The position numbers and the translations under genes are program-made. Positions 3,976-64,000 of a stretch of DNA of 64,000 nt are shown here, one piece after another. Position 1 is the stretch's first letter. Every line of letters begins with the position of its first letter. The stretch spans positions 391-64,390 of the forward strand of contig JBDHUS010000001.1 in the NCBI GenBank assembly GCA_039809325.1, in the 5' to 3' direction. The notes below the pieces were generated by a model. That model did not search any database, was not told the DNA's origin, and saw only the letters and a program-made list of their open reading frames with translations. The stretch comes from Minisyncoccia bacterium. Its GTDB lineage: Bacteria; Patescibacteriota; Minisyncoccia; Phycocordibacterales; UBA5272.

Positions 3976-4056
3976 AATTTTATTAATAAATGATTAATGA
4001 AATATACTATATTTTTTACTTTTTTGCAAATAATTAAAGTAAAACTATAATAATAA

Positions 4057-5499
4057 TTAAAAATCAAACCTACTCTCTAAATACTTATCTAAATCTATAA
4101 TCTTCACTCTTTCCTGCTCCATAGTATCTCTATCACGGACTGTCACTGACTCATCACTCACACTATCGTAGTCAAAAGTTATACAATATGGAGTCCCTAT
4201 CTCATCTTGTCTTCTATATCTTTTTCCAATACTTCCAGAAATATCAAATTCTGCAAAATACTTTTTTGATAAATCTTTCCAGATCTTGCGAGCCGGCTCT
4301 AATAATTCTTCTTTTTTAAATAGTGGAAATACTGCTACTTTTACCGGAGAAAGCCTTTTATCTAATTTCAATACTACTCTCTCTTCTGTATTACTATTTT
4401 TATCTTGCAATTTTTCTTTTGTATATGCATTATCTATAAAAGCAAGCATCATGCGAGCAACTCCAACTGAAGTTTCTACAATGTGAGGAATAAATCTTTC
4501 ACGAGTAATTTCATCAAAATATGTTAAATCCTTCCCAGAAAATTTTTGATGTTGTGATAAATCCCAATCTCCTCTAGCATGAATTCCTTCTAATTCTTTT
4601 GGATCTCCACCCAACATTTTATATTTATACTCAATATCATATGCATCACTAGCATAATGAGCTAATTTTTCATGCTTATACCAATTAAGACTATCTTTTT
4701 CAATCCCATATTCTAAATAAAAATTCCATCTATATTTTTTCCACTCATTAAAATATTCTTCTGTGGTGTTACCGTCTGCGGAAACTGGATTAAAAAAATA
4801 CTGCATTTCCATTTGTTCAAATTCTCTTGTTCTAAAAATAAATTGTTTTGTTACTATTTCATTTCTAAAAGCTTTTCCAATTTGGGCTATACCAAAAGGA
4901 AGTTTTGGGTGTAAAGAGTCTAATGTATTTTTATACTCTAAATAAATTCCTCCACAAGTTTCTGGTCTTAAATATACAACATTTTCTTCATTAAGAGCTT
5001 CTGTTGGAGAACCAAGATTACTTTTTACCATTAAAGAAAATATTTTTGCTTCTGTTAATTCTGCTTTGCCACAATTTGCACATATTAATTTTTTTTCTAA
5101 TCCTAATTTGTCTAATTCTTTATTTATAAAGTCTAAAGAAGCTTTATCAGCATTTATATCAAAACTCTCTAAGATATGATCTGCTCGAAATCTCATTTTA
5201 CAATTCTTGCAATCTATTTGTGGGTCATTAAAGGTATCAATATGACCGGAAGCTTTCCAGGTTGTAGGATGCATAAATATTCCAGAGTCGAGAGCTAAAA
5301 CATCGTCTCTTTCTTGAATCATGCTTTTCATCCAAGCATCTTTAATATTTTTTAAAAGTAAATATCCATAATGTCCATAATCATAAACACCATTAAATCC
5401 TCCGTATATTTCACTTGAAGGATACACAAATCCCCTACTCTTTAGAAAAGCAATCATTTCTATCATTAAATTATTTTCTTCTTTTTTCTTTTCTGACAT
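4057..5499 (-). CDS. glyQS: glycine--tRNA ligase (class II, dimeric GlyQS type)
   Basis: 480 aa. The N-terminal motif IYGGFNGVYDYGHYG and class II aaRS motifs are typical of alpha2 GlyRS. Confidence 0.9.
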   Translation of the reverse strand: MSEKKKEENNLMIEMIAFLKSRGFVYPSSEIYGGFNGVYDYGHYGYLLLKNIKDAWMKSMIQERDDVLALDSGIFMHPTTWKASGHIDTFNDPQIDCKNCKMRFRADHILESFDINADKASLDFINKELDKLGLEKKLICANCGKAELTEAKIFSLMVKSNLGSPTEALNEENVVYLRPETCGGIYLEYKNTLDSLHPKLPFGIAQIGKAFRNEIVTKQFIFRTREFEQMEMQYFFNPVSADGNTTEEYFNEWKKYRWNFYLEYGIEKDSLNWYKHEKLAHYASDAYDIEYKYKMLGGDPKELEGIHARGDWDLSQHQKFSGKDLTYFDEITRERFIPHIVETSVGVARMMLAFIDNAYTKEKLQDKNSNTEERVVLKLDKRLSPVKVAVFPLFKKEELLEPARKIWKDLSKKYFAEFDISGSIGKRYRRQDEIGTPYCITFDYDSVSDESVTVRDRDTMEQERVKIIDLDKYLESRFDF

Positions 5500-7648: not shown

Positions 7649-8680
7649 TTAAGGATTAGGACAATCTTTAACCACTATTCCTGTAAAAGTTGTTTTCTGC
7701 CCTGTTTGTACTACTAAAGCCTCCCATGTTTCTTTACCAACTTCTCCATCTACACCCAATCCATTTACTTTTTGAAAATTTTTAACAAAAGCAGCATCAG
7801 CTTCATCATATGTTGTACTAAAAGTATAATTACTTGGCATACAATTATGCTTTTTTAATAAATTCTCAAGTAAGGTAAAAGCTTTTTTATCTGGTGAAGC
7901 ACCTGCTTCTAATGTAGACTTTGCTCCTATTTTAATAACTGGATATAAGTCTTTATTATCAAATACATTTTCTCTTTTTACTCCTCCAGCATCATTTTGT
8001 ATAGGACTATTTTTAGGTCTACATTGCCCTACTTCACCTTTTTTTAATGAAGCGCCTCCAGGACCTAAACAATATAATCCTGAAACACATTGTGATTTTT
8101 CTCCTTCTTGTACAACACAAGTCTCACCAGTTTTTTTAGTATTAAGAAAATCATCTTCATTACCCAAAACATTTTTTTCAGGTTTTTTCTCACCACTACC
8201 AGTACCCCCTCCACTACCTGTATTTAATGTTGCAAATCTTACAGGTTCAATAACTATTTCATTCCCTTTTATTTGAAGTAGCCCTTGTGCTAATTTTATA
8301 ATTCCCCAAACGGAAACCATAACAAAAAGAGAAATAAGTCCCCACATCATAAATTCTTTTCCTTTTTTTAATTCATTACCATCTTTTCCTTGAGCTCTAT
8401 CGTAAATAAATTTTGCAAGCCCATAAAAAAATATAACAAATGCTGCAGTCATTAAAAGAGTGCTCGCACTAGTTAATACATTATTAGTAATATTGTTTGC
8501 TACTTCTTTAAAGCTTTGACTTGCTGTGTATGCATTATCTTGTGCGAAAACTAAATTTAAATTCAAAAGAAAAATAAAAAGAAAAATAGAAATTGATTTT
8601 ATTTTTATTTTTATATTATTTATTTTCATATTTTTATTTATTAAACTTTGATTTAAAATTATTAAGGTAATATTACACAT
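7649..8680 (-). CDS. secreted protein with a pilin-like two-helix module, a Cys-rich region and a C-terminal peptidoglycan-binding-like (PG_binding_1) motif
   Basis: Signal peptide, then TM1/TM2 (FFYGLAKFIYDRAQGKDG...FMMWGLISLFVMVSVWGIIKL). The C-terminal DEADAAFVKNFQKVNGLGVDGEVGKETWEAL resembles PG_binding_1. Confidence 0.5.
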   Translation of the reverse strand: MCNITLIILNQSLINKNMKINNIKIKIKSISIFLFIFLLNLNLVFAQDNAYTASQSFKEVANNITNNVLTSASTLLMTAAFVIFFYGLAKFIYDRAQGKDGNELKKGKEFMMWGLISLFVMVSVWGIIKLAQGLLQIKGNEIVIEPVRFATLNTGSGGGTGSGEKKPEKNVLGNEDDFLNTKKTGETCVVQEGEKSQCVSGLYCLGPGGASLKKGEVGQCRPKNSPIQNDAGGVKRENVFDNKDLYPVIKIGAKSTLEAGASPDKKAFTLLENLLKKHNCMPSNYTFSTTYDEADAAFVKNFQKVNGLGVDGEVGKETWEALVVQTGQKTTFTGIVVKDCPNP

Positions 8681-9744
8681 TTCCCCGTAGATCCTGCTTT
8701 TTGTGTAGAACTTTTACAATAATATCCTCCCACACATTCTGTGTTACTATTTCCACCTTCTAATACAGTACAAATTTCTCCTGGGGCTTTTTTAGAATCA
8801 GGAAGAATTGTACATTTTCCCGTAGATCCTGCTTTTTGTGTAGAACTTTTACAATAATATCCTCCCACACATTCTGTGTTACTATTTCCACCTTCTAATA
8901 CAGTACAAATTTCTCCTGGGGCTTTTTTAGAACCAGTTGGAGAAATAGCTTTTGATTCTAATTTACAAGTGCCTTTTTGTGTACCTATTAATTCTACTCC
9001 TCTTTCATCTTGACAAGAAAGACCTGGACCGCAACTATTAGATTCTGTTGTCATACCTCCTAAACATTGCTGATTAAGCTGTAGTCCTACTTTTCTACAT
9101 ATTCCTTCTCCACTTGATAATGGTCCTCCTGTTAATTTATCTCTACAACCTAAACCTGTATCACAAATAAATCCAGGGGTGGTCGCTCCGGCAGTGCAAG
9201 CATCTCCTTCTGAAATATTTGCTCCTACATCTCCTCCTACATCTCTACCTAATATACTAGGATCTGGCTTTTTCTCATCAAATACTCCACCTCCACCTTG
9301 AGAAGGTTTATCTGATTTGGTTGTATCACAAGATCCATTAACACAAATTCTTGGTAAATTTATATCATTATTACCTTGCATACCTAAAATACCTTGTACT
9401 AATTTTATAATGCCCCAAACAGATACAAGTATAAATAAGGCGCCTAGTCCCCAAGTCATACCTTTTTTATCTCTTGCTAAACTTTTTTCATCACCTCTTG
9501 CTCTGTCATAGATAAATTTCACAAGTCCAAAAAGAAATGCCGCAAGTGCTGCACCACTAAAAAGTATTACTAAATTATCTACTATATTTTTATTAAAATT
9601 TAAAATGATTCCTCCAACATCTGCAAAGTCTGGCGTGTTATTAAATATGTTACCAGAAGTAGCCGCTAAAGAATGATTTAAAATCAAAGCAAAAGATAAA
9701 ATAAAAACTATAATTAATTTAAATTTAATATTTTTTTTAGACAT
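8662..9744 (-). CDS. secreted protein with a pilin-like two-helix module and multiple Cys-rich knot-like modules, including a perfect tandem 45-aa repeat
   Basis: FLFGLVKFIYDRARGDEK...GMTWGLGALFILVSVWGIIKL is followed by repeated C-x-C-x(2)-G-L/Y-x-C modules. The final 45 aa are duplicated exactly. Confidence 0.5.
   Translation of the reverse strand: MSKKNIKFKLIIVFILSFALILNHSLAATSGNIFNNTPDFADVGGIILNFNKNIVDNLVILFSGAALAAFLFGLVKFIYDRARGDEKSLARDKKGMTWGLGALFILVSVWGIIKLVQGILGMQGNNDINLPRICVNGSCDTTKSDKPSQGGGGVFDEKKPDPSILGRDVGGDVGANISEGDACTAGATTPGFICDTGLGCRDKLTGGPLSSGEGICRKVGLQLNQQCLGGMTTESNSCGPGLSCQDERGVELIGTQKGTCKLESKAISPTGSKKAPGEICTVLEGGNSNTECVGGYYCKSSTQKAGSTGKCTILPDSKKAPGEICTVLEGGNSNTECVGGYYCKSSTQKAGSTGKCVILP
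8681..8950 (-). repeat. direct tandem duplication, 2 x about 135 bp, inside a coding region
   Basis: About 118 nt are identical between 8682-8800 and 8816-8934 (cccgtagatcctgc...ggggcttttttagaa). They encode KKAPGEICTVLEGGNSNTECVGGYYCKSSTQKAGSTGKC twice. Confidence 0.85.
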
Positions 9745-9798: not shown

Positions 9799-10392
9799 TT
9801 ATTTGAACAACATATTAAAATTATAAGTTTTTCCAACCTGATTATATTTCCTATGGTCTTTAGGAAGTGCCCGTAAACTTACACTCATTTTAAAGGTAAA
9901 AGGCCTGTCTTCTTTAGCGTTTTCTAGACCGTCTCTAAAATACAAAGCTAAATCTTCTGCGTTCATATAAAAACTCTTTTTGTTAGAAGAAATTCTGGCA
10001 TAATTTAAGCCCTGCAGATTAGAGTCTGCATCTTCCCCAGGAAAACTCCATGAAATCTCGGACAAGCTTTCGTCAAAACTATATTGGTCAGCATACTCAG
10101 GATTTATAGAAACTCTTAGTTCTGATGGGTTCCCTGTAGTGTCATATTTGTAAGTGTGCAAAAAGAGTTCTGAAGGATCCACGTCTTTTTTTGTATTATT
10201 TGATACGCTTGAATTATTTGTAGCTGGAGTATTATTGGTAGCTGGAGTATTTGTGGTTCTTTCATTTTGAGGTGAAGAGGTATGAAGAGGTATTTGTTTC
10301 TTCTTCTCCCTCCGCTTCAGCGGTTGTATTATTAGAATTAGAATTATTGTTCTTAGTGTCTGTAGTATTTTGAGTTCCAACATTTCCTCCAA
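9799..10392 (-). CDS. hypothetical protein with Asn/Thr-rich low complexity; N-terminal limit uncertain
   Basis: ORF from a TTG start. The TPATNNTPATNN region is encoded by short tandem DNA repeats at 10225-10260. Confidence 0.25.
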   Translation of the reverse strand: MEEMLELKILQTLRTIILILIIQPLKRREKKKQIPLHTSSPQNERTTNTPATNNTPATNNSSVSNNTKKDVDPSELFLHTYKYDTTGNPSELRVSINPEYADQYSFDESLSEISWSFPGEDADSNLQGLNYARISSNKKSFYMNAEDLALYFRDGLENAKEDRPFTFKMSVSLRALPKDHRKYNQVGKTYNFNMLFK

Positions 10393-25314: not shown

Positions 25315-25701
25315 GGGAGTGTCAGGATTCGACACATAATTCTTTGTAAATGTGGTTTCCGATAATGAAAATATATCGTTAAATCTTTTCAAAATATGTT
25401 GCAAACAAAACTGCAAAAGCTGTGCCTTCTCCTTTCGGATGGGCATTCGCTCCGGTAGCCGCTTAATTAAGCCGCTTTGGTGCTGACCTTTATTTACATA
25501 TCGTAAAGAGCTCGGCAATATAAAGAATATGTGTAGAAAATTTTAAGTTAGCTTTCTCTAAAATTTTTGAAAAATAAAAAGCTAAGCGGAGCTATTTTGT
25601 TTATTTAATAAGCTTCGACGAAAATCAATAAATAAACTATGAAACTAGACTCATTTATAAAAATTATCTGCACGGGGGTTCAACTCCCCCCACTTCCACA
25701 A
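25315..25701 (+). ncRNA. ssrA: tmRNA (SsrA); CCA not encoded
   Basis: - The 5' end GGGAGTGTCAGGATTCGACAC resembles GGGGCUGAUUCUGGAUUCGAC.
- The 3' end CGGGGGTTCAACTCCCCCCACTTCCAC-A forms a T-arm plus an acceptor strand that pairs with the 5' GGGAGUG.
- The tag ORF ends ...GWAFAPVAA-TAA (25464-25466) followed by TTAA. Confidence 0.7.
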
Positions 25702-52270: not shown

Positions 52271-52346
52271 TGGTGTGCCTATCCGGATTCGAACCGGAAC
52301 TGAGGGCTCCACAAACCCTAGTGCTAACCATTACACCATAGGCACC
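52271..52346 (-). tRNA. tRNA-His (GUG) with encoded G-1 and CCA
   Basis: - The reverse complement is GGTGCCTATGGTGTAATGGTTAGCACTAGGGTTTGTGGAGCCCTCAGTTCCGGTTCGAATCCGGATAGGCACACCA.
- It folds into a cloverleaf with anticodon loop TTGTGGA (anticodon GTG) and T-loop TTCGAAT.
- An extra 5' G precedes a 7-bp acceptor stem, and the discriminator is A. Confidence 0.85.
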
Positions 52347-58537: not shown

Positions 58538-59494
58538 ATGAAAGGATTAACAAAGATATTAAATAAAGACACATTATCTGGTAAAGACAGAGCTTTACTT
58601 TTAATTTACAGTAGTATAGAAAAAGAAAAGAATGGAAAAGCTATTCTAGAAGAACATGATATTACAGCAATTAGAAGTTTTAATGATATTAAAATAAAAG
58701 GACCAGATGGTAAGTTAAATTATTTTAAAAGAAATAGAGTTATTGATGAATTCAATCTATACATTGAAAACATGAATAGTTTTCAAGAAGTCAGAGCTCA
58801 AATAAAAGTTATCTATTTAGATTTACAAAATAGGATCAATAAAGTTGGAAGAGTAATTGATCATTTTGTCTGGAAAGAAAATCCTGATTTTAAAAATATT
58901 GATAAATATATATTAGAAGAAGAAGGTGTCTTAGATCTAATCTTAGATAATACATATATAGTCTATGAAGATCTTATTAATGAGATAGACGATAAAGAAA
59001 AGAAAGCTATTGAAGAACTGATTAAGAATCAAGAAATAGAGATCGTAAACAATAAAGACGGAATATCTCTCATCACTGGTAGGAGTATATATAACCTAAA
59101 AAGTGAGCATGAATTCAAAAAGGATTACTTAAACGAAATTGATAAGTTAAAAGATTTCTTTAAGATTATTTGGTTTATAAAAGAAAGAAAAATAGAAGAA
59201 GATTATTCTAATTTCTTGAAATTTAAAAACATAATGGAAAAAGCTTCAGAATTCTTTGAAATAGAATTAGATGGAGAAATCAAAGAATACATAGAAGAAT
59301 TAGAAGATGATTTTAGAAGTATGAATATCTCCTTATTATACATCTTTGAGAAATCAATTAAAAATTGTGTATCTTTATCTATACCGCTAGAGATAGATTT
59401 TGATAAGATACTGCTAAGAAATAATATTGAAACAGAAGATTCTAAAATCTATCTAAAAGCTTTAGATCTTTTGAAAGATATATTTATAGATTAG
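58538..59494 (+). CDS. hypothetical protein
   Basis: 318 aa, acidic; no recognisable motif. Confidence 0.3.
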   Translation: MKGLTKILNKDTLSGKDRALLLIYSSIEKEKNGKAILEEHDITAIRSFNDIKIKGPDGKLNYFKRNRVIDEFNLYIENMNSFQEVRAQIKVIYLDLQNRINKVGRVIDHFVWKENPDFKNIDKYILEEEGVLDLILDNTYIVYEDLINEIDDKEKKAIEELIKNQEIEIVNNKDGISLITGRSIYNLKSEHEFKKDYLNEIDKLKDFFKIIWFIKERKIEEDYSNFLKFKNIMEKASEFFEIELDGEIKEYIEELEDDFRSMNISLLYIFEKSIKNCVSLSIPLEIDFDKILLRNNIETEDSKIYLKALDLLKDIFID

Positions 59495-60245
59495 TTATTT
59501 CTTCTTTCTTTTCTTCTGTAAGAACTTCCACTTTTTCTTCTTTTGCTTTTGGTATAGATTTAGTAGTATTAGTCTTCATCTTTGGTTTTGGGACATCTAA
59601 AGCTAAAACTATTATTTGATAAATAGAATCTAATATATCTTCATTAGAAAAATTAACTCCAGTTTTAGTTTTAAGATTCTTTTTAAGAAGTTTGATAACT
59701 GATTCATCAAAAAGATATTTAGATAAAGATAATGGAGATAGACTATCTATCTTTTTCCAATATTCATCTAAAAGATTTTTATTAATAGACTTTTTAGTTA
59801 TTAATTCAAATAGATTAAAACATTCTTTATAACTAGAATCATTTAATAAATCTATATCAAATACTAATTTAGAAAAGACTGGTTTAGCAAACATTACTTT
59901 GTATAATTGAAAATTACGACCATTTAAAAGTAATATCCAATCAATACCCTCACCTGCGGCATAACCTAGACTTTGTCTTAAATGACTATCACTTAATTTT
60001 GTTCCCAGTGATTTTACTTCAACGACTATTTTCTTTTTCTTACCTATTTGGATAACATAATCAGCATAACCTCCCCCTATCTCATATTCTGTTTTGATTT
60101 CTTCATTTGGAATATATCCTAAGACATTTCTTAGAAAATCATTAACTAAAAGTCTAGTTCCACTCTCATTAAGTTTTGGATTATTTTTAAATGCTATAGT
60201 TAGTTCTTTTTTATAATCCTTGATTTCATCTTTAAAAGTTTTCAT
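59484..60245 (-). CDS. PD-(D/E)xK nuclease-like protein (HsdR_N / restriction-endonuclease-like fold)
   Basis: GGGYADYVIQIGKKKKIVVEVKSLG fits the D...E-x-K core of HsdR_N-type domains. Confidence 0.45.
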   Translation of the reverse strand: MKTFKDEIKDYKKELTIAFKNNPKLNESGTRLLVNDFLRNVLGYIPNEEIKTEYEIGGGYADYVIQIGKKKKIVVEVKSLGTKLSDSHLRQSLGYAAGEGIDWILLLNGRNFQLYKVMFAKPVFSKLVFDIDLLNDSSYKECFNLFELITKKSINKNLLDEYWKKIDSLSPLSLSKYLFDESVIKLLKKNLKTKTGVNFSNEDILDSIYQIIVLALDVPKPKMKTNTTKSIPKAKEEKVEVLTEEKKEEITNL

Positions 60246-60249
60246 ATGA

Positions 60250-60711
60250 TTAATTTTTAGCTTTATCTTTTAATTCATCTAAGACCTTTTTTAATTCATA
60301 AGGTTCAGAGATATATTTTAAAACTACTTCTTTACCTCCTGTCCCTGCTGTATCGATAGCGATAGCTCCAGTCTTAAAAATAACTCTATCTAAAAATGGT
60401 TCTCTGATAAGAACATCAGTAATCTTATGATAATCAATACTTACTAAACTTGTAGAAAGCCAACCTTTGTGTATTAAAACTCTTTTATTTGTAAAAGCGT
60501 AAGCATTTGCTCTTTTGATATAGAAAAGGAAATAGAAAAGATGAAAAATTAAAAATGGAATTCCTATGAAAGCAAAACTTAAAAGACCCCATATTATTAT
60601 TCCAGCTATTAAGCTTATCTTTATATATTGCCCACTTATAGAAAATTCTTTTTCTATAACTTCATCTTTTGACAAAACTTTTTTCCAAACATTTTCGTTA
60701 GTTGTTTGCAT
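60250..60711 (-). CDS. membrane-anchored bacterial PH-domain (bPH_2/YdbS-like) protein
   Basis: Two TM helices followed by YAFTNKRVLIHKGWLSTSLVSIDYHKITDV. Confidence 0.5.
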   Translation of the reverse strand: MQTTNENVWKKVLSKDEVIEKEFSISGQYIKISLIAGIIIWGLLSFAFIGIPFLIFHLFYFLFYIKRANAYAFTNKRVLIHKGWLSTSLVSIDYHKITDVLIREPFLDRVIFKTGAIAIDTAGTGGKEVVLKYISEPYELKKVLDELKDKAKN

Positions 60712-61017
60712 AAATTTGTAGCGGTTTTAATTTTTAATATCTAAATGAGTCTCTCTGACAAAAGACTCTCCACCATTGCGATTCTTGTTTCCAAGAACCC
60801 ATATCCGTTTCCAGATATGACCGCTACAGTGACTCTGATGGAGAGTCTTTTATACTGTAGCGGATATTTTCTAACCATGCCTAGCAAATGCTAAGTTTAG
60901 GCTATTTGTAATAATATTTTAGCATAAATACGAGAGTATTTATAGCATTGTGTATCTTAGCTTAAATAAAGGAAAAATAATAACGTGAATGCTAAGATAA
61001 TGCTAAAAAAAGAAAAA

Positions 61018-63132
61018 CTATCCCTCCACAACTTGTCTGACTTTTTCTGCTAGTTTTTCCGAAAATTCTTTTATATTAACATTTGCTATATTATCTGAAT
61101 AAAATGTTTTAACATGCTCAGTACCTGAACCTATACCAAGCCCAATAATATGAACATCTTTTTCCTGTTCTATCTTTTTTACTATTTCTTTCAAATCATA
61201 TCCTTCATGCTGTGGAGACTCTACTGGAACACCATCAGATAGCACAAATAATATTTTCTTTTTTTCTTCTCTATTTTTTATTTTCTTATACATTTCGTCC
61301 ACAGCCCATCCATCATCATTATAATCTGCTCTACCACCACTATGATTATCAACTTCACTTAACATATCTTCTGTACCCTCTCTAAGATCATCAGTATAAT
61401 CTTCGTCAAATTCTTTATATTCATATAGTCTATCATTAAATCCTGCCACAGATAATTTAATCCCTATATTTCTAAGAGCTTCGCAAAGGACTACTACAGC
61501 CTTATAAGTTTCACTGATTTTCGTACCACTCATACTTCCAGATAAATCTACCAATATTTGAATTGCGTAGTCTTTTTCTAAAGGTAATTCTTTTTTCATA
61601 AAAACGTTTAGACTGTCTACTCCTGTGGCTTCACCTCTAATTTCTCTTTTTACGTCTATCATCATTCCACTTCTATAACCAGAATTCCAAGCGTTTCTTT
61701 TTCTCTCAATAAAAATATCTCTTAATTCATTTTCTAACTTAAATATTATGGGAGATACATCTTCAAGAACCTTTTGGTAACTATTTTGTCCATTATATTT
61801 TTCTCTATCAAAATCTTTTTTAGCTTTTTCAATAGCTTCCTTTAAAGCTTGTCTCATTTTATCTCTTCTTTCTCTCTCATTATCTTTTGAGTAATCTTTT
61901 TCTTCTCTTTGAGATTTATCATCTTTGGATTTTTCTTCCGAATCACTACTTGTTTCTTTCTCTTTTTGTAGTTCAGCTTTAGATTCTAAGTATTCATTCA
62001 TCTCTTTCTCTATTTCTCTAATTATTTGATCTGCTTTTTCTTTTATTTCTTGATCAGACATTTTAGAAGGATTGGATTTATTATCTTGAATATCTGGATC
62101 ACTTAGAGTAGAGTTTACATCTTGTTGTGAATTTTCATTTTGTTTATTAGATTTTTCTCCATCCATATTATCAGGTCTTTGTTCTTCTTCAGTCTTATTA
62201 GAATTATCTTTAGTTTCACCTTCTTTACTTTGTGGTTTCCGATTATCTTTTTCACCCTCTCCAGAATTTTGCTCTTTATTTACTTCTTGATTTTTATTTT
62301 CACTTTTTTGATTATCATCTTGTCTTATTTTATCTTCTGTGTCCTTTGTATCTGAATCAACTAAAGTTTTAAAAACAGGCCAGACTTCTTCTAGATTTAT
62401 TTTATATGACTCTCTAGCATACTCTTGTACGACTTGCTCTCCATCTAATTTTTCTCCATTTAACAGCATACCTTTCTCTACCTCTTTTCTAAGTGGATAA
62501 GTTAGCCAACTTCTTCTTGCAGAACTAAGAGTTTTTTCTACCACTTCTATTACTTCCTTTGGAAGTTCTTTGTCTATTTCTATCTTTTCTCCTTTTGTCT
62601 CAGCAATCCATTGCTTTATGTATTCAAGTCCTGCTTGCATGAATCTGGGGACTCTTCCAACTTTTTGTTTTGCTTTTTCTTTCATTTTTCTTTCAAATTC
62701 AGCATCGAGATCATACGAAAATATCATCTCTTGCTTAAACTTTGGTACATTGTCGGCGACATAGTTATTCATCCTAGGATCTTCTATTGCATTCATCATA
62801 GAAGAAAACCCTGGTTGATTCCATATTTCATCTGGAATGATACCTATAACCCTAGAAATTTTTCTATGTCCAGCTTCATGTTGAATAACAAAACGTAGAT
62901 AATCAATTGGTTTTTCCAATAAATCTTTTGCGTCACACCTCACAATATTATTCTTAAAATCCCAATGCCAACCTTGACCCTCATTAACCTCTACCTTCAT
63001 ACTTACATCAGTTGCTACCATTCTACAAAGTGGAGTCAACAAAGATAATCTTTGTTTTATTATTTTTCTGTCTTCATAATTAAAATTATCAAGAATACTG
63101 TGTTTTTTACCAAAAGATTCTAATCTGTCCAT
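61018..63132 (-). CDS. vWA-domain protein with an N-terminal HExxH (DUF2201_N-like) domain and a long acidic low-complexity linker
   Basis: HEAGHRK; roughly 250 aa rich in E/K/D/S/N; C-terminal MIDAS motif ILVDLSGSMSG ... VLSDG. Confidence 0.6.
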   Translation of the reverse strand: MDRLESFGKKHSILDNFNYEDRKIIKQRLSLLTPLCRMVATDVSMKVEVNEGQGWHWDFKNNIVRCDAKDLLEKPIDYLRFVIQHEAGHRKISRVIGIIPDEIWNQPGFSSMMNAIEDPRMNNYVADNVPKFKQEMIFSYDLDAEFERKMKEKAKQKVGRVPRFMQAGLEYIKQWIAETKGEKIEIDKELPKEVIEVVEKTLSSARRSWLTYPLRKEVEKGMLLNGEKLDGEQVVQEYARESYKINLEEVWPVFKTLVDSDTKDTEDKIRQDDNQKSENKNQEVNKEQNSGEGEKDNRKPQSKEGETKDNSNKTEEEQRPDNMDGEKSNKQNENSQQDVNSTLSDPDIQDNKSNPSKMSDQEIKEKADQIIREIEKEMNEYLESKAELQKEKETSSDSEEKSKDDKSQREEKDYSKDNERERRDKMRQALKEAIEKAKKDFDREKYNGQNSYQKVLEDVSPIIFKLENELRDIFIERKRNAWNSGYRSGMMIDVKREIRGEATGVDSLNVFMKKELPLEKDYAIQILVDLSGSMSGTKISETYKAVVVLCEALRNIGIKLSVAGFNDRLYEYKEFDEDYTDDLREGTEDMLSEVDNHSGGRADYNDDGWAVDEMYKKIKNREEKKKILFVLSDGVPVESPQHEGYDLKEIVKKIEQEKDVHIIGLGIGSGTEHVKTFYSDNIANVNIKEFSEKLAEKVRQVVEG

Positions 63133-63164: not shown

Positions 63165-64000
63165 TTATTCTAGATAAATAGATCTTTTAATTTTATAACA
63201 ATTGCCCCATTTTAAAAGACCTTTATATGAATTTTTATTATTTTCATTTAGGTTTTTTACCATCTTTATTTTTGTTGTCTTTCTTAGGATTCTGTATTTT
63301 GGGAAATTTATAAAACCTAGAAAATCCATTCCACTATAGACTGTCCTAATAATTTCCTTATGTACTACCAAGTGTAAATGTTCAAGACAAAATGTTTTTA
63401 ATATATATCTAAATTCTTCTGCTTCTTGAAGAGAATCAAAAAAACATACTATATCATCTGCATACCTAATATAATATTTAATTTTACAAATATGTTTAGA
63501 GAAGAAGTCCAACTCATTTAAATAAACATTTATAAATAATTGGGAAGTTAGATTTCCTAAGGCCAGTCCTTTTTCTTGGCTAAATATTATCTCCCTACAT
63601 AAATTGATAATATCTTTGTCAGAAATATATTTTGATAATATCTTAATTAAAATATCTTGATCTATACTCTGGAAACACTTTTTTATATCAAACTTCAAAA
63701 CCCAAGCTTGCTTTGTATAATTCAGAGTTATCTCTCTAGAAAATTTTTCATATCTAAGTATAGCTTTATGTGTACCTTTAAATTTCCTAGAACTATAGGA
63801 ATCATAAATAAATCTTTTATCAAAATAATCGTATAAGAAATTATATACCAATTTGTGAACTATTCTGTCTATAACAGTAGCTTTATTAATCAATCGAGTT
63901 TTTGTATCGACTATTTTAAAATTTGTATAAGGCCCATGTTTATATGAATTATTTTTCAAATCTTTAAATATATCAAATAATTGATCACCAGATTTAAAAT
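63165..64000 (-). CDS. diversity-generating retroelement (DGR)-type reverse transcriptase; 5' end beyond the window
   Basis: - YKHGPYTNFKIVDTKTRLI ... IDRIVH ... DSYSSRKFKGTHKA (RT motifs 1-2).
- KGLALGNLTSQLFINVYLNELD, the (I/L)GxxxSQ signature.
- YADD catalytic motif.
- The frame stays open upstream of the TTG at 63959 through to position 64000. Confidence 0.8.
   Translation of the reverse strand, partial: FKSGDQLFDIFKDLKNNSYKHGPYTNFKIVDTKTRLINKATVIDRIVHKLVYNFLYDYFDKRFIYDSYSSRKFKGTHKAILRYEKFSREITLNYTKQAWVLKFDIKKCFQSIDQDILIKILSKYISDKDIINLCREIIFSQEKGLALGNLTSQLFINVYLNELDFFSKHICKIKYYIRYADDIVCFFDSLQEAEEFRYILKTFCLEHLHLVVHKEIIRTVYSGMDFLGFINFPKYRILRKTTKIKMVKNLNENNKNSYKGLLKWGNCYKIKRSIYLE

What the first reader, a model, noticed from the sequence alone, without database searches (positions are those of the whole stretch)
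63165..64000. Diversity-generating retroelement reverse transcriptase at the window edge (TR/VR not visible)
- The partial ORF has the RT 1-2 region shared by DGR and retron RTs (HGPYTNFKIVDTKTRLI...IDRIVH...DSYSSRKFKGTHKA).
- It also has the DGR-diagnostic replacement of the usual QGxxxSP motif by LGNLTSQ, in the context KGLALGNLTSQLFINVYLNELD (compare Bordetella bRT QGLPIGNLTSQ).
- YADD is present.
- DGRs are abundant in CPR and DPANN genomes and hypermutate C-terminal variable regions of surface or ligand-binding proteins.
- The template repeat, avd and cognate target would normally lie upstream of the RT, which here is beyond position 64000.
- No TR/VR pair was found inside the window. The perfect tandem repeat at 8681-8950 has no adenine-specific differences.
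Basis: partly seen in the sequence, partly recalled or inferred. Interest (0 to 1): 0.8.

Follow-up and report, generated by a model that had tools for sequence, protein, structure and literature searches.

The report
Reverse transcriptase of a CPR-type DGR
The window ends inside the reverse transcriptase gene of an ordinary Patescibacteria-type diversity-generating retroelement; its helper gene (avd) and template repeat lie just past the window edge, but the gene it mutates was not recovered.

Summary
Window 63165-64000 (minus strand) holds the C-terminal 277 codons of a 350-aa reverse transcriptase (RT) with LGNLTSQ and YADD. Its best solved relative is the Bordetella DGR RT bRT (E 1e-30, against about 1e-12 for group II intron RTs).

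An independent assembly (L013), 100% identical over 421 nt, extends the window by 780 nt. It shows a divergently oriented bAvd-family gene. Beyond that lies a 123-nt template repeat (TR) that is GC-rich, rich in Asn codons, and aligns with proven TRs of relatives.

This TR-(avd)-RT order is the published "B3" architecture, which Wu et al. 2018 found in 90% of CPR DGRs. Nine of ten relatives with enough sequence, and 58 of 80 metagenomic loci, have TR/VR pairs whose mismatches fall almost only on adenines.

The cognate variable repeat (VR) was not found. It is not in the window. It should lie about 300 nt beyond the TR, roughly where the 65,082-nt source contig ends.

Syntenic relatives suggest the target is a MoxR-like AAA_5 ATPase that partners the HExxH-VWA gene next to the RT.

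Verdict: a correctly identified new member of a known kind, of modest interest.

The parts
63165..64000 (-). C-terminal 277 codons plus stop of the DGR reverse transcriptase. The full protein is P0001 (350 aa), with its start codon at window-equivalent 64217. Motif 4 LGNLTSQ is at 63540-63560 and the catalytic YADD at 63453-63464.
   Evidence: Translation. Pfam RVT_1 E 7.8e-21. Best PDB match is 8ub7_A, which is bRT, at E 1e-30, against 3e-12 for group II intron RTs. P0001 is 100% identical and sits on a 65,082-nt NCBI contig. bRT R74 aligns with an Arg here, and bRT I181-G182...Q187 aligns with L-G...Q.

Off-window parts, read from L013 (L013 position + 63579 = window coordinate; 421-nt overlap at 100% identity):
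- G-run element, about 64190-64216.
- avd (P0121, 113 aa) on the plus strand, 64229-64570. Pfam bAvd 45.9 bits against a cut-off of 40.
- Terminator-like hairpin on the minus strand, 64558-64580.
- Template repeat on the minus strand, about 64592-64714.
61018..63132 (-). A 704-aa protein with an N-terminal HExxH motif (HEAGH at residue 85) and a C-terminal VWA/CobT_C domain. It starts 32 nt after the RT stop codon on the same strand. It is the inferred partner of the AAA_5 (MoxR-like) DGR target, not a core DGR part.
   Evidence: Pfam CobT_C 8.4e-19 and VWA 2.4e-09. It is 75% identical to the gene after the RT in L011, and 53% identical over its full length to the gene after the RT in L007, whose DGR target is an AAA_5 protein. 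HExxH-VWA genes also flank the DGRs in L004, L006 and L019. The linkage is not general: 0 of 45 metagenomic B3 loci have this gene after the RT.
60780..60903 (-). LOOT RNA (Rfam RF03000), in the leader of the bPH_2 gene at 60250-60711. It is a neighbour of the DGR/VWA block. Any link to the DGR is unproven.
   Evidence: Rfam 83.8 bits against a gathering score of 46.4. The same LOOT-plus-bPH_2 pair lies next to the DGR of L007, at 4550-4672 and 4024-4620. The two bPH proteins are 56% identical.

Best explanation
The ORF is the reverse transcriptase of a chromosomal diversity-generating retroelement of the Patescibacteria (CPR) type, with the published 'B3' layout: target/VR - TR - (avd, opposite strand) - RT.

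Shown here:
- The RT has the DGR-type motifs.
- A bAvd-family gene starts 11 nt beyond the RT start codon and is transcribed divergently.
- A 123-nt template repeat lies 21 nt past the avd stop codon, on the RT strand. It is 45% GC in a 25-28% GC neighbourhood and has 10 AAY (Asn) codons in 41.
- The TR is followed by a 9-bp hairpin and a U-tract.

Inferred, by analogy with the Bordetella phage DGR:
- A short TR RNA, ending at the hairpin, is bound by an RT-Avd complex.
- It is reverse-transcribed with random misincorporation opposite template adenines.
- The cDNA replaces the variable repeat at the 3' end of a target gene, recoding about ten Asn positions of a C-terminal ligand-binding domain.

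From synteny with L007, L021 and L020, the target is most likely a MoxR-like AAA_5 ATPase. It would lie about 300 nt beyond the TR, and it would work with the HExxH-VWA protein encoded right after the RT. The VR and target of this organism were not recovered, so present-day activity is not shown.
For: RT identity:
- Motifs and frame are confirmed, with Pfam RVT_1 at 7.8e-21.
- The best solved relative is bRT (8ub7_A), E 1e-30, against 3e-12 for group II intron RTs.
- The chain is identified as bRT from its residue numbering, I181/G182/Q187/D215/D216.

Same contig:
- P0001, P0121 and four window proteins are all listed on one 65,082-nt NCBI contig.
- L013 overlaps the window by 421 nt at 100% identity and encodes P0001 residues 1-212 and P0121 exactly.

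avd and TR:
- avd scores 45.9 bits on Pfam bAvd, above the cut-off of 40.
- The TR aligns with validated TRs of ten relatives, including the TR-specific upstream element.
- Its composition and AAY content are given.

Relatives:
- TR/VR pairs whose mismatches fall almost only on adenines occur in L001-L007, in L020 and L021, and in 58 of 80 metagenomic loci found with an Avd profile.
- The RT is on the strand opposite to avd in 63 of 63 loci.
- The B3 architecture TR-(avd)-RT accounts for 90% of CPR DGRs (Wu et al. 2018, PMC5758913).

Hairpin after the TR:
- It is terminator-like in L013.
- It is present in 62 of 65 loci. A T-run follows in 50 loci on the TR-sense strand, against 1 on the other strand.
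- Folding z-scores average -3.5.

Target inference:
- Targets are AAA_5 proteins in L004, L006, L007 and L021.
- The C-terminus of the L020 target matches AAA_5 protein P0242.
- The window's VWA protein is 53% identical to L007's.
Against: - The defining TR/VR pair was not seen for this organism. There is no VR in the 64-kb window.
- There was no match in JGI metagenomes to the TR with adenines masked.
- None of the 120 best homologues of the L021 AAA_5 target has a C-terminus matching this TR.
- avd and the TR were read from another assembly of the same population (L013), not from the source contig itself.
- The annotated RT start, a TTG inside a G-run giving MRGGGGGEN..., is uncertain.
- NCBIfam has no model that places the protein. 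The best hit, group II intron RT/maturase, scores 121.7 bits against a cut-off of 300.
Confidence: 0.9

Rival explanations
1. It is an orphan or decayed DGR. RT, avd and TR are present, but the target/VR has been lost or lies far away and is no longer diversified, so the cassette is currently inactive.
For: No VR was found by any route. The sequence beyond window-equivalent 64780 is unknown.
Against: - The RT, avd and TR reading frames are intact. The catalytic YADD and LGNLTSQ motifs are intact. The TR keeps 10 AAY codons and has no stop in the VR frame.
- In every relative with enough sequence, the VR lies 294-375 nt upstream of the TR. Here that is at about 65,010-65,090, the end of the 65,082-nt contig.
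- Contigs of six other assemblies break exactly at the 3' edge of the TR (L011, L012, L014-L017). A missing VR is therefore the expected assembly artefact.
Confidence: 0.12
2. It is a non-DGR reverse transcriptase: group II intron, retron, CRISPR-associated, or a defence RT of the DRT/UG/Abi kind.
For: Generic RT models also hit the protein: NCBIfam group II RT/maturase at 3.7e-35, and PADLOC Cas1_IIIb at 1.6e-23, RT_UG26 at 9.6e-21 and RT_UG17 at 5.5e-19.
Against: - All NCBIfam scores are far below their cut-offs: 121.7 against 300, 46.7 against 200, and 46 against 235.
- At 350 aa the protein has no maturase/X or endonuclease domain.
- Rfam finds no group II intron or retron RNA in the window or in L013.
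- There are no cas genes nearby.
- Motif 4 is LGNLTSQ, not QGxxxSP.
- An Avd gene and a TR are adjacent.
- Relatives have adenine-specific TR/VR pairs.
Confidence: 0.02

Closest known systems
CPR/Patescibacteria DGRs of architecture B3, TR-(avd)-RT (Wu et al. 2018, NAR, PMC5758913; 'DGR clade 2' of Roux et al. 2021, PMC8144416)
   Same: - Gene order and strands are the same.
- The RT is about 330-350 aa and avd about 110-130 aa.
- The TR is about 120 nt, lies immediately 3' of the avd stop, and is on the RT strand.
- The VR sits at the extreme C-terminus of the target and ends ...RF(L/V)(F/C)VRK.
- A subset of CPR targets (UVR4) were reported to match a Midasin/AAA ATPase domain, as inferred here.
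   Different: No substantive difference. The VR/target of this organism is not in hand. The tight RT-to-HExxH-VWA adjacency is limited to this subclade (0 of 45 other B3 loci) and did not appear in the passages of those papers that I read.
Bordetella phage BPP-1 DGR (bRT, Avd, TR, mtd)
   Same: - RT palm and finger motifs match: [I/L]GxLTSQ, Y(M/A)DD, and the Arg equivalent to bRT R74.
- The closest solved structure is bRT-Avd.
- An Avd-family accessory protein is present.
- The TR is rich in AAY codons.
- There is a stem-loop just 3' of the TR. In bRT-Avd RNPs such a stem-loop binds Avd (Handa et al., bioRxiv 10.1101/2023.10.23.563531).
   Different: - The element is chromosomal and cellular, not from a phage.
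- avd is inverted and sits between the TR and the RT. The roughly 140-nt 'Sp' spacer of the Bordetella RNA therefore has no obvious counterpart.
- The TR RNA appears to end at a terminator-like hairpin about 12 nt after the TR.
- A long-range upstream/downstream 'cPRT-stop'-like duplex was looked for and not supported.
- The target is probably an intracellular AAA+ ATPase, not a tail-fibre protein.
vWA-MoxR (VMAP) ternary conflict systems linked to DGRs in cyanobacteria and gammaproteobacteria (Kaur et al. 2020, eLife, PMC7159879)
   Same: A MoxR-type AAA+ ATPase and a vWA protein are encoded together with a DGR that diversifies a C-terminal domain of one of them.
   Different: In VMAP systems the variable FGS/CLec domain is fused to the vWA component. 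In the relatives here it is fused to the AAA_5 ATPase, and the vWA protein carries an HExxH motif instead. No third VMAP component was identified. For the window itself the ATPase is only inferred.

Membership tests
Diversity-generating retroelement (DGR) | RT with DGR-type motif 4 [I/L/V]GxxxSQ (in place of QGxxxSP) and catalytic YxDD | tested here: met
   LGNLTSQ is at 63540-63560 and YADD at 63453-63464. They align with bRT I181-Q187 and Y213-D216.
Diversity-generating retroelement (DGR) | RT groups with DGR RTs rather than with group II intron, retron or other RTs | tested here: met
   bRT scores E 1e-30 and 110 bits, against 50 bits or less for group II intron and related RTs. Homologues at 47-63% identity sit in cassettes with adenine-specific TR/VR pairs. 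No formal phylogeny was built.
Diversity-generating retroelement (DGR) | Template repeat next to the RT | tested here: met
   Found off-window in L013 at window-equivalent 64592-64714, minus strand. It aligns with validated TRs and with their TR-specific upstream element. It is 45% GC and has 10 AAY codons in 41. It is identified by homology and position, not through its own VR.
Diversity-generating retroelement (DGR) | Cognate variable repeat differing from the TR (almost) only at TR adenines, at the 3' end of a target gene | tested here: inconclusive
   It is absent from the 64-kb window, from JGI metagenomes, and from the best 120 AAA_5 target homologues. The region where relatives carry it, about 300-375 nt beyond the TR, is not available.
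Diversity-generating retroelement (DGR) | Avd accessory protein (present in about 74% of DGRs; Wu et al. 2018) | tested here: met
   P0121 (113 aa) scores 45.9 bits on Pfam bAvd, above the cut-off of 40. It is on the same 65,082-nt contig and lies 11 nt from the RT start, divergently oriented.
Diversity-generating retroelement (DGR) | Demonstrated adenine mutagenesis or VR diversity in the population | not testable with these tools
   This needs reads from DRR236213 or from the runs behind ERZ27298986 and ERZ27298990, or an experiment.
CPR DGR architecture B3 (Wu et al. 2018) | Order TR-(avd on the reverse strand)-RT | tested here: met
   L013 shows the layout directly. The same layout is seen in 63 of 63 metagenomic loci with an RT and in L001-L007, L011, L018, L020 and L021.
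Group II intron RT/maturase | Maturase (X) domain, an intron RNA with domains I-VI around the ORF, and TIGR04416 at 300 bits or more | tested here: not met
   TIGR04416 scores 121.7 bits against a cut-off of 300. Rfam finds no group II intron in the window or in L013. The protein ends about 45 aa after the thumb region.
Retron RT | Retron-family RT score and an adjacent msr/msd RNA | tested here: not met
   NF038233 scores 46 bits against a cut-off of 235. PADLOC retron models give E of about 1e-7 or weaker. There is no retron RNA hit.

The most novel reading that the evidence does not exclude
In this subclade of Patescibacteria, the DGR is built into a two-gene MoxR-like AAA_5 ATPase / HExxH-VWA module, possibly together with the neighbouring LOOT-RNA-led bPH gene. 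It hypermutates the C-terminal domain of the ATPase. That would make a CPR counterpart of the DGR-linked vWA-MoxR conflict or sensor systems, but with the variable domain on the ATPase instead of the vWA protein. In other words, an intracellular, ATP-driven recognition machine with a programmable specificity domain.
Probability: 0.35. Interest if true: 0.5.

Novelty: new member of a known kind. Interest (0 to 1): 0.25.

Why it matters
This adds one more Patescibacteria genome to the thousands already known to carry a DGR, so it changes little by itself. Two practical points follow.

First, contigs in this clade break at the TR/VR repeat, so scans that judge a window in isolation will routinely see orphan RTs.

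Second, the closest relatives show a recurring arrangement: a DGR-diversified AAA_5 (MoxR-like) ATPase together with an HExxH-VWA partner. This hints at what these DGRs do in organisms whose DGR targets have mostly been described as lacking recognisable domains (Roux et al. 2021).

Tried and rejected
1. Exact look-up of P0001 to extend the contig: not on record. The extension came through the VWA neighbour and then through the Avd homologue P0121.

2. The genome-contig scan did not contain the source genome.

3. VR searches all failed:
- window self-BLAST;
- TR against the window, including an adenine-masked scan;
- adenine-masked TR pattern against JGI metagenomes, 0 hits;
- homologues of the L021 target, none with a matching C-terminus;
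- tblastn of relatives' targets against the window, nothing below E 0.1.

4. Hypothesis: the 5' flank of the TR (the GGTGG element) pairs with the antisense of the conserved Avd GGW codons, as a counterpart of the Bordetella 'cPRT stop' duplex.
- It appeared in the MFE folds of L013 and L002.
- A cross-locus permutation over 65 loci gave no signal. Matched pairs averaged -18.78 kcal/mol against -18.91 for mismatched pairs, and 3250 of 5000 permutations did at least as well. Matched pairs were also no better than shuffled sequence.
- The hypothesis is rejected.
- Pairing of the 5' flank with the first 60 nt after the TR was only marginal (152 of 3000).

5. Hypothesis: RT-to-VWA adjacency is general for B3 DGRs. 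Rejected: 0 of 45 loci.

6. Pfam on the N-terminal 259 aa of the VWA protein found no metallopeptidase family. The HExxH motif is seen by eye and regex only.

7. The source gives no names for the window proteins, so the taxonomic assignment to Patescibacteria is inferred from homologues.

Full report
**1. What is in the window**

Window 63165-64000 is read on the minus strand. It translates without a stop into 277 residues ending in a stop codon at 63165-63167.

- HGPYTNFKIVDTKTRLI at 63888-63938
- IDRIVH at 63855-63872
- DSYSSRKFKGTHKA at 63762-63803
- LGNLTSQ at 63540-63560
- YADD at 63453-63464

The fragment matches Pfam RVT_1 with E 7.8e-21 and has more than 1,400 homologues. The N-terminus is cut by the window edge. 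The 264-aa TTG ORF in the mechanical ORF list is a truncation artefact.

**2. Which kind of reverse transcriptase (RT)**

Among solved structures the best match by far is 8ub7_A, at E 1e-30 and 110 bits over residues 8-248. Group II intron RTs reach only about 1e-12.

That chain is the Bordetella DGR RT, bRT. Its residues I181, G182, Q187, D215 and D216 in the printed alignment match the numbering used in the bRT-Avd cryo-EM preprint. bRT R74 aligns with an Arg here. bRT IGSLTSQ aligns with LGNLTSQ, and YMDD aligns with YADD.

Other classifications fail:
- NCBIfam has no model that places the protein. Group II RT/maturase scores 121.7 bits against a cut-off of 300, Drt3a 46.7 against 200, and retron St85 46 against 235.
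- PADLOC gives only generic RT hits.
- Rfam finds no group II intron or retron RNA.

**3. Extending past the edge**

A 100%-identical full-length protein, P0001 (350 aa), is recorded on a 65,082-nt NCBI contig. Four other window proteins are on the same contig. The source contig therefore continues at least 219 and at most 1,082 nt beyond position 64000.

The genome collection did not hold this genome, and P0001 itself could not be looked up. The 81%-identical relative P0002 has a bAvd gene next to its RT. Searching with that Avd found P0121, which is 83% identical and sits on the same 65,082-nt contig. P0121 is also encoded on an ENA contig, L013.

L013 overlaps window 63580-64000 at 100% identity over 421 nt. 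It encodes P0001 residues 1-212 and P0121 exactly. I use it as a proxy for window-equivalent positions 64001-64780 (L013 position + 63579).

It shows the following features:
- The annotated RT start, a TTG, at 64217 inside a G-run.
- avd (113 aa) on the plus strand at 64229-64570, divergent from the RT. Pfam bAvd gives 45.9 bits against a cut-off of 40.
- A 9-bp hairpin followed by a T-run on the minus strand (CTCTCGTAA-ATTAA-TTACGGGAG TTTTCTTTTT).
- A 123-nt element at about 64592-64714 on the minus strand.

In the target frame that element reads NVLDGNMQVPIVNWNGDNRNLNANNWDDDWNDKYRFLFVRK. It is 45% GC, against 25-28% in the flanking genes, and has 10 AAY codons in 41.

It aligns with the proven TRs of ten relatives. 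The alignment includes an upstream element that TRs have and VRs lack. This is the template repeat.

**4. Evidence from relatives**

- RT homologues at 47-55% identity from Patescibacteria MAGs carry TR/VR pairs of 117-130 nt with 8-20 mismatches each. Summed over the seven loci, 101 of 109 mismatches are at TR adenines. This holds in 7 of 8 loci.
- L020 (63% RT identity) and L021 (closest Avd and TR with a complete cassette) do the same.
- A scan of JGI metagenomes with an Avd profile returned 80 loci. Of these, 58 have an adenine-biased TR/VR pair on the strand opposite to avd. In 63 of 63 loci with an RT, the RT is opposite to avd.
- The order VR/target - TR - (avd) - RT is architecture 'B3' of Wu et al. 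2018, which they report for 90% of CPR DGRs and hardly anywhere else.
- Roux et al. 2021 describe a DGR clade restricted to Patescibacteria.

The element is therefore a typical member of a well-described class.

**5. The missing variable repeat (VR)**

No adenine-biased repeat exists within the window. The recovered TR has no counterpart in the 64 kb: the best identity at non-A positions is 46%. The Cys-rich proteins at 5.5-9.7 kb are therefore not targets.

An adenine-masked TR pattern found nothing in JGI metagenomes. None of the 120 best homologues of the L021 target has a C-terminus that fits this TR.

In relatives the VR ends 294-375 nt upstream of the TR. Here that is about 65,010-65,090, which is where the 65,082-nt contig would end if the window starts at its first base.

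Contigs from six other assemblies of the P0002-type relative all stop exactly at the 3' edge of the TR (L011, L012, L014-L017). A break at the TR/VR repeat is therefore the likely reason the VR is absent. This is an inference. An orphan cassette is not excluded (I give it about 0.12).

**6. How it probably works**

The following is shown:
- The RT, avd and TR are intact.
- A hairpin lies within 75 nt after the TR in 62 of 65 loci.
- A T-run follows the hairpin in 50 loci on the TR-sense strand, against 1 on the other strand.
- This region folds far better than shuffled sequence, with a mean z of -3.5.
- The stems differ between loci while keeping their pairing: GTAA/TTAC in L018 and in L013, AGAC/GTCT in L021, and GCT/GGC (with a G-U pair) in L022.

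The following is inferred:
- The TR is made as a short RNA that ends at this hairpin.
- The hairpin may also be the counterpart of the Avd-binding stem-loop that sits just 3' of the TR in the Bordetella RNA.
- RT-Avd copies the TR with misincorporation opposite adenines, and the cDNA replaces the VR.

I tested whether the 5' flank of the TR pairs with the antisense of the conserved Avd GGW codons, as a counterpart of the Bordetella 'cPRT stop' duplex. The pairing shows up in single-sequence folds. A cross-locus permutation test gives no signal, so I reject it. Where priming occurs in this layout remains open.

**7. The likely target**

The gene 32 nt downstream of the RT (61018-63132) encodes an HExxH...VWA/CobT_C protein.
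- Its homologue follows the RT in L011 and L014-L017 (75% identity), in L007 (53% over the full length), and in L019 and L020.
- HExxH-VWA genes also flank the DGRs of L004 and L006.
- In every one of these loci where the target is visible (L004, L006, L007), it is an AAA_5 (MoxR-like) ATPase with the VR at its C-terminus. L021, the relative with the closest Avd and TR, also has an AAA_5 target, although its own VWA gene is not visible because that contig begins inside avd. The C-terminus of the L020 target matches the AAA_5 protein P0242.
- Relatives with non-AAA targets that were checked (L002) lack a VWA neighbour.

MoxR-type ATPases pairing with VWA proteins is established background knowledge.
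- Wu et al. noted Midasin/AAA matches for one group of CPR targets.
- Kaur et al. 2020 described DGR-linked vWA-MoxR systems in which the vWA protein carries the variable domain.

I therefore predict an AAA_5 target for this organism. The tight RT-to-VWA adjacency is limited to this subclade: 0 of 45 other B3 loci have it.

**8. Verdict**

The prediction that the TR and avd lie beyond position 64000 is verified. The element is a new member of a known kind, the CPR B3 DGR. Its own VR is still unseen, so its completeness and activity are not shown. The interest is modest. The most interesting residue is the possible DGR/AAA_5/VWA functional module.

Noticed in passing
window 60780-60903 (-), with the bPH_2 gene at 60250-60711 (-); also L007 4550-4672 and 4024-4620: A LOOT RNA (Rfam RF03000, 83.8 bits) sits in the leader of a bacterial PH-domain gene, directly downstream of the VWA gene. 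The same LOOT-plus-bPH pair (proteins 56% identical) lies beside the DGR of L007, but on the other side of the cassette. This suggests LOOT is a cis-element of bPH genes, and possibly that both are linked to the AAA_5/VWA/DGR block.
   Followed up: partly
window 61018-63132 (-): The 704-aa protein after the RT combines an N-terminal HExxH motif (HEAGH at residue 85; no Pfam family matches that region) with a long acidic, Lys/Glu-rich linker and a C-terminal VWA/CobT_C domain. All seven DGR-adjacent homologues keep an HExxH motif at residues 85-137.
   Followed up: partly
window-equivalent about 64190-64216 (L013 612-636); L011 409-426; L002 about 10003-10040: A G-run (C-run on the avd strand) lies in the short divergent avd/RT intergenic region and is conserved across relatives. 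Gene callers start the RT inside it, giving MRGGGGGEN... One independent assembly of the same sequence (L009) begins 57 nt inside the RT ORF, about 30 nt past the G-run. Its role is unknown: it could be a ribosome-binding site, a structure, or simply a sequencing-coverage hole.
   Followed up: partly
L013 979-1001 (window-equivalent 64558-64580, minus strand); 62 of 65 related loci: A hairpin lies immediately 3' of the TR and overlaps the avd stop codon. A T-run follows it only on the TR-sense strand (50 loci against 1). The stems differ between loci while keeping their pairing. It may both terminate the TR RNA and act as an Avd-binding stem-loop.
   Followed up: yes
about 20-60 nt upstream of the TR in L022-L101 and L001-L007 (sequences listed): A hairpin upstream of the TR appears to covary: for example GCCCC-GAGAGTATTCAA-GGGGC, ATCCC...GGGAT, GTCCG...CGGAC and GCTTTTC...GAAAAGC. 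It is followed by a conserved (G/C)(A/G)GTGG motif. This was seen by eye only. As a whole, the 60 nt upstream of the TR did not fold notably better than shuffled sequence (z -0.76).
   Followed up: partly
L011, L012 and L014-L017 (contig ends); L009 and L010: Independent assemblies break at the same places: exactly at the 3' edge of the TR (six contigs), just inside the RT ORF about 30 nt past the G-run (L009), or inside the RT (L010). Isolated RTs at contig ends should be expected for this DGR clade.
   Followed up: partly
window 8677-8936: A tandem duplication with a 135-nt period, 1.9 copies and 98% matches spans the junction of the ORFs at 7649-8680 and 8662-9744. Its seven mismatches are not adenine-biased, and it has no similarity to the DGR TR.
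   Followed up: partly
L005 about 9430-9600: This relative has an extra insertion of about 120 nt between the TR and avd. The avd GGW codons lie 179 nt after the TR end, against 20-80 nt elsewhere. The cassette therefore tolerates insertions at this point.
   Followed up: no
window 25315-25699 (+) and 52271-52345 (-): A tmRNA (tag AKAVPSPFGWAFAPVAA) and a tRNA-His(GTG) are the only other RNA genes found. The window is 28.9% GC.
   Followed up: no
window 59484-60245 (-): A 253-aa protein has weak, sub-threshold matches to the type I restriction HSDR_N_2, MmeI_N and PD-(D/E)XK nuclease families (E 3e-4 to 9e-3). It may be a stand-alone nuclease next to the bPH gene.
   Followed up: no
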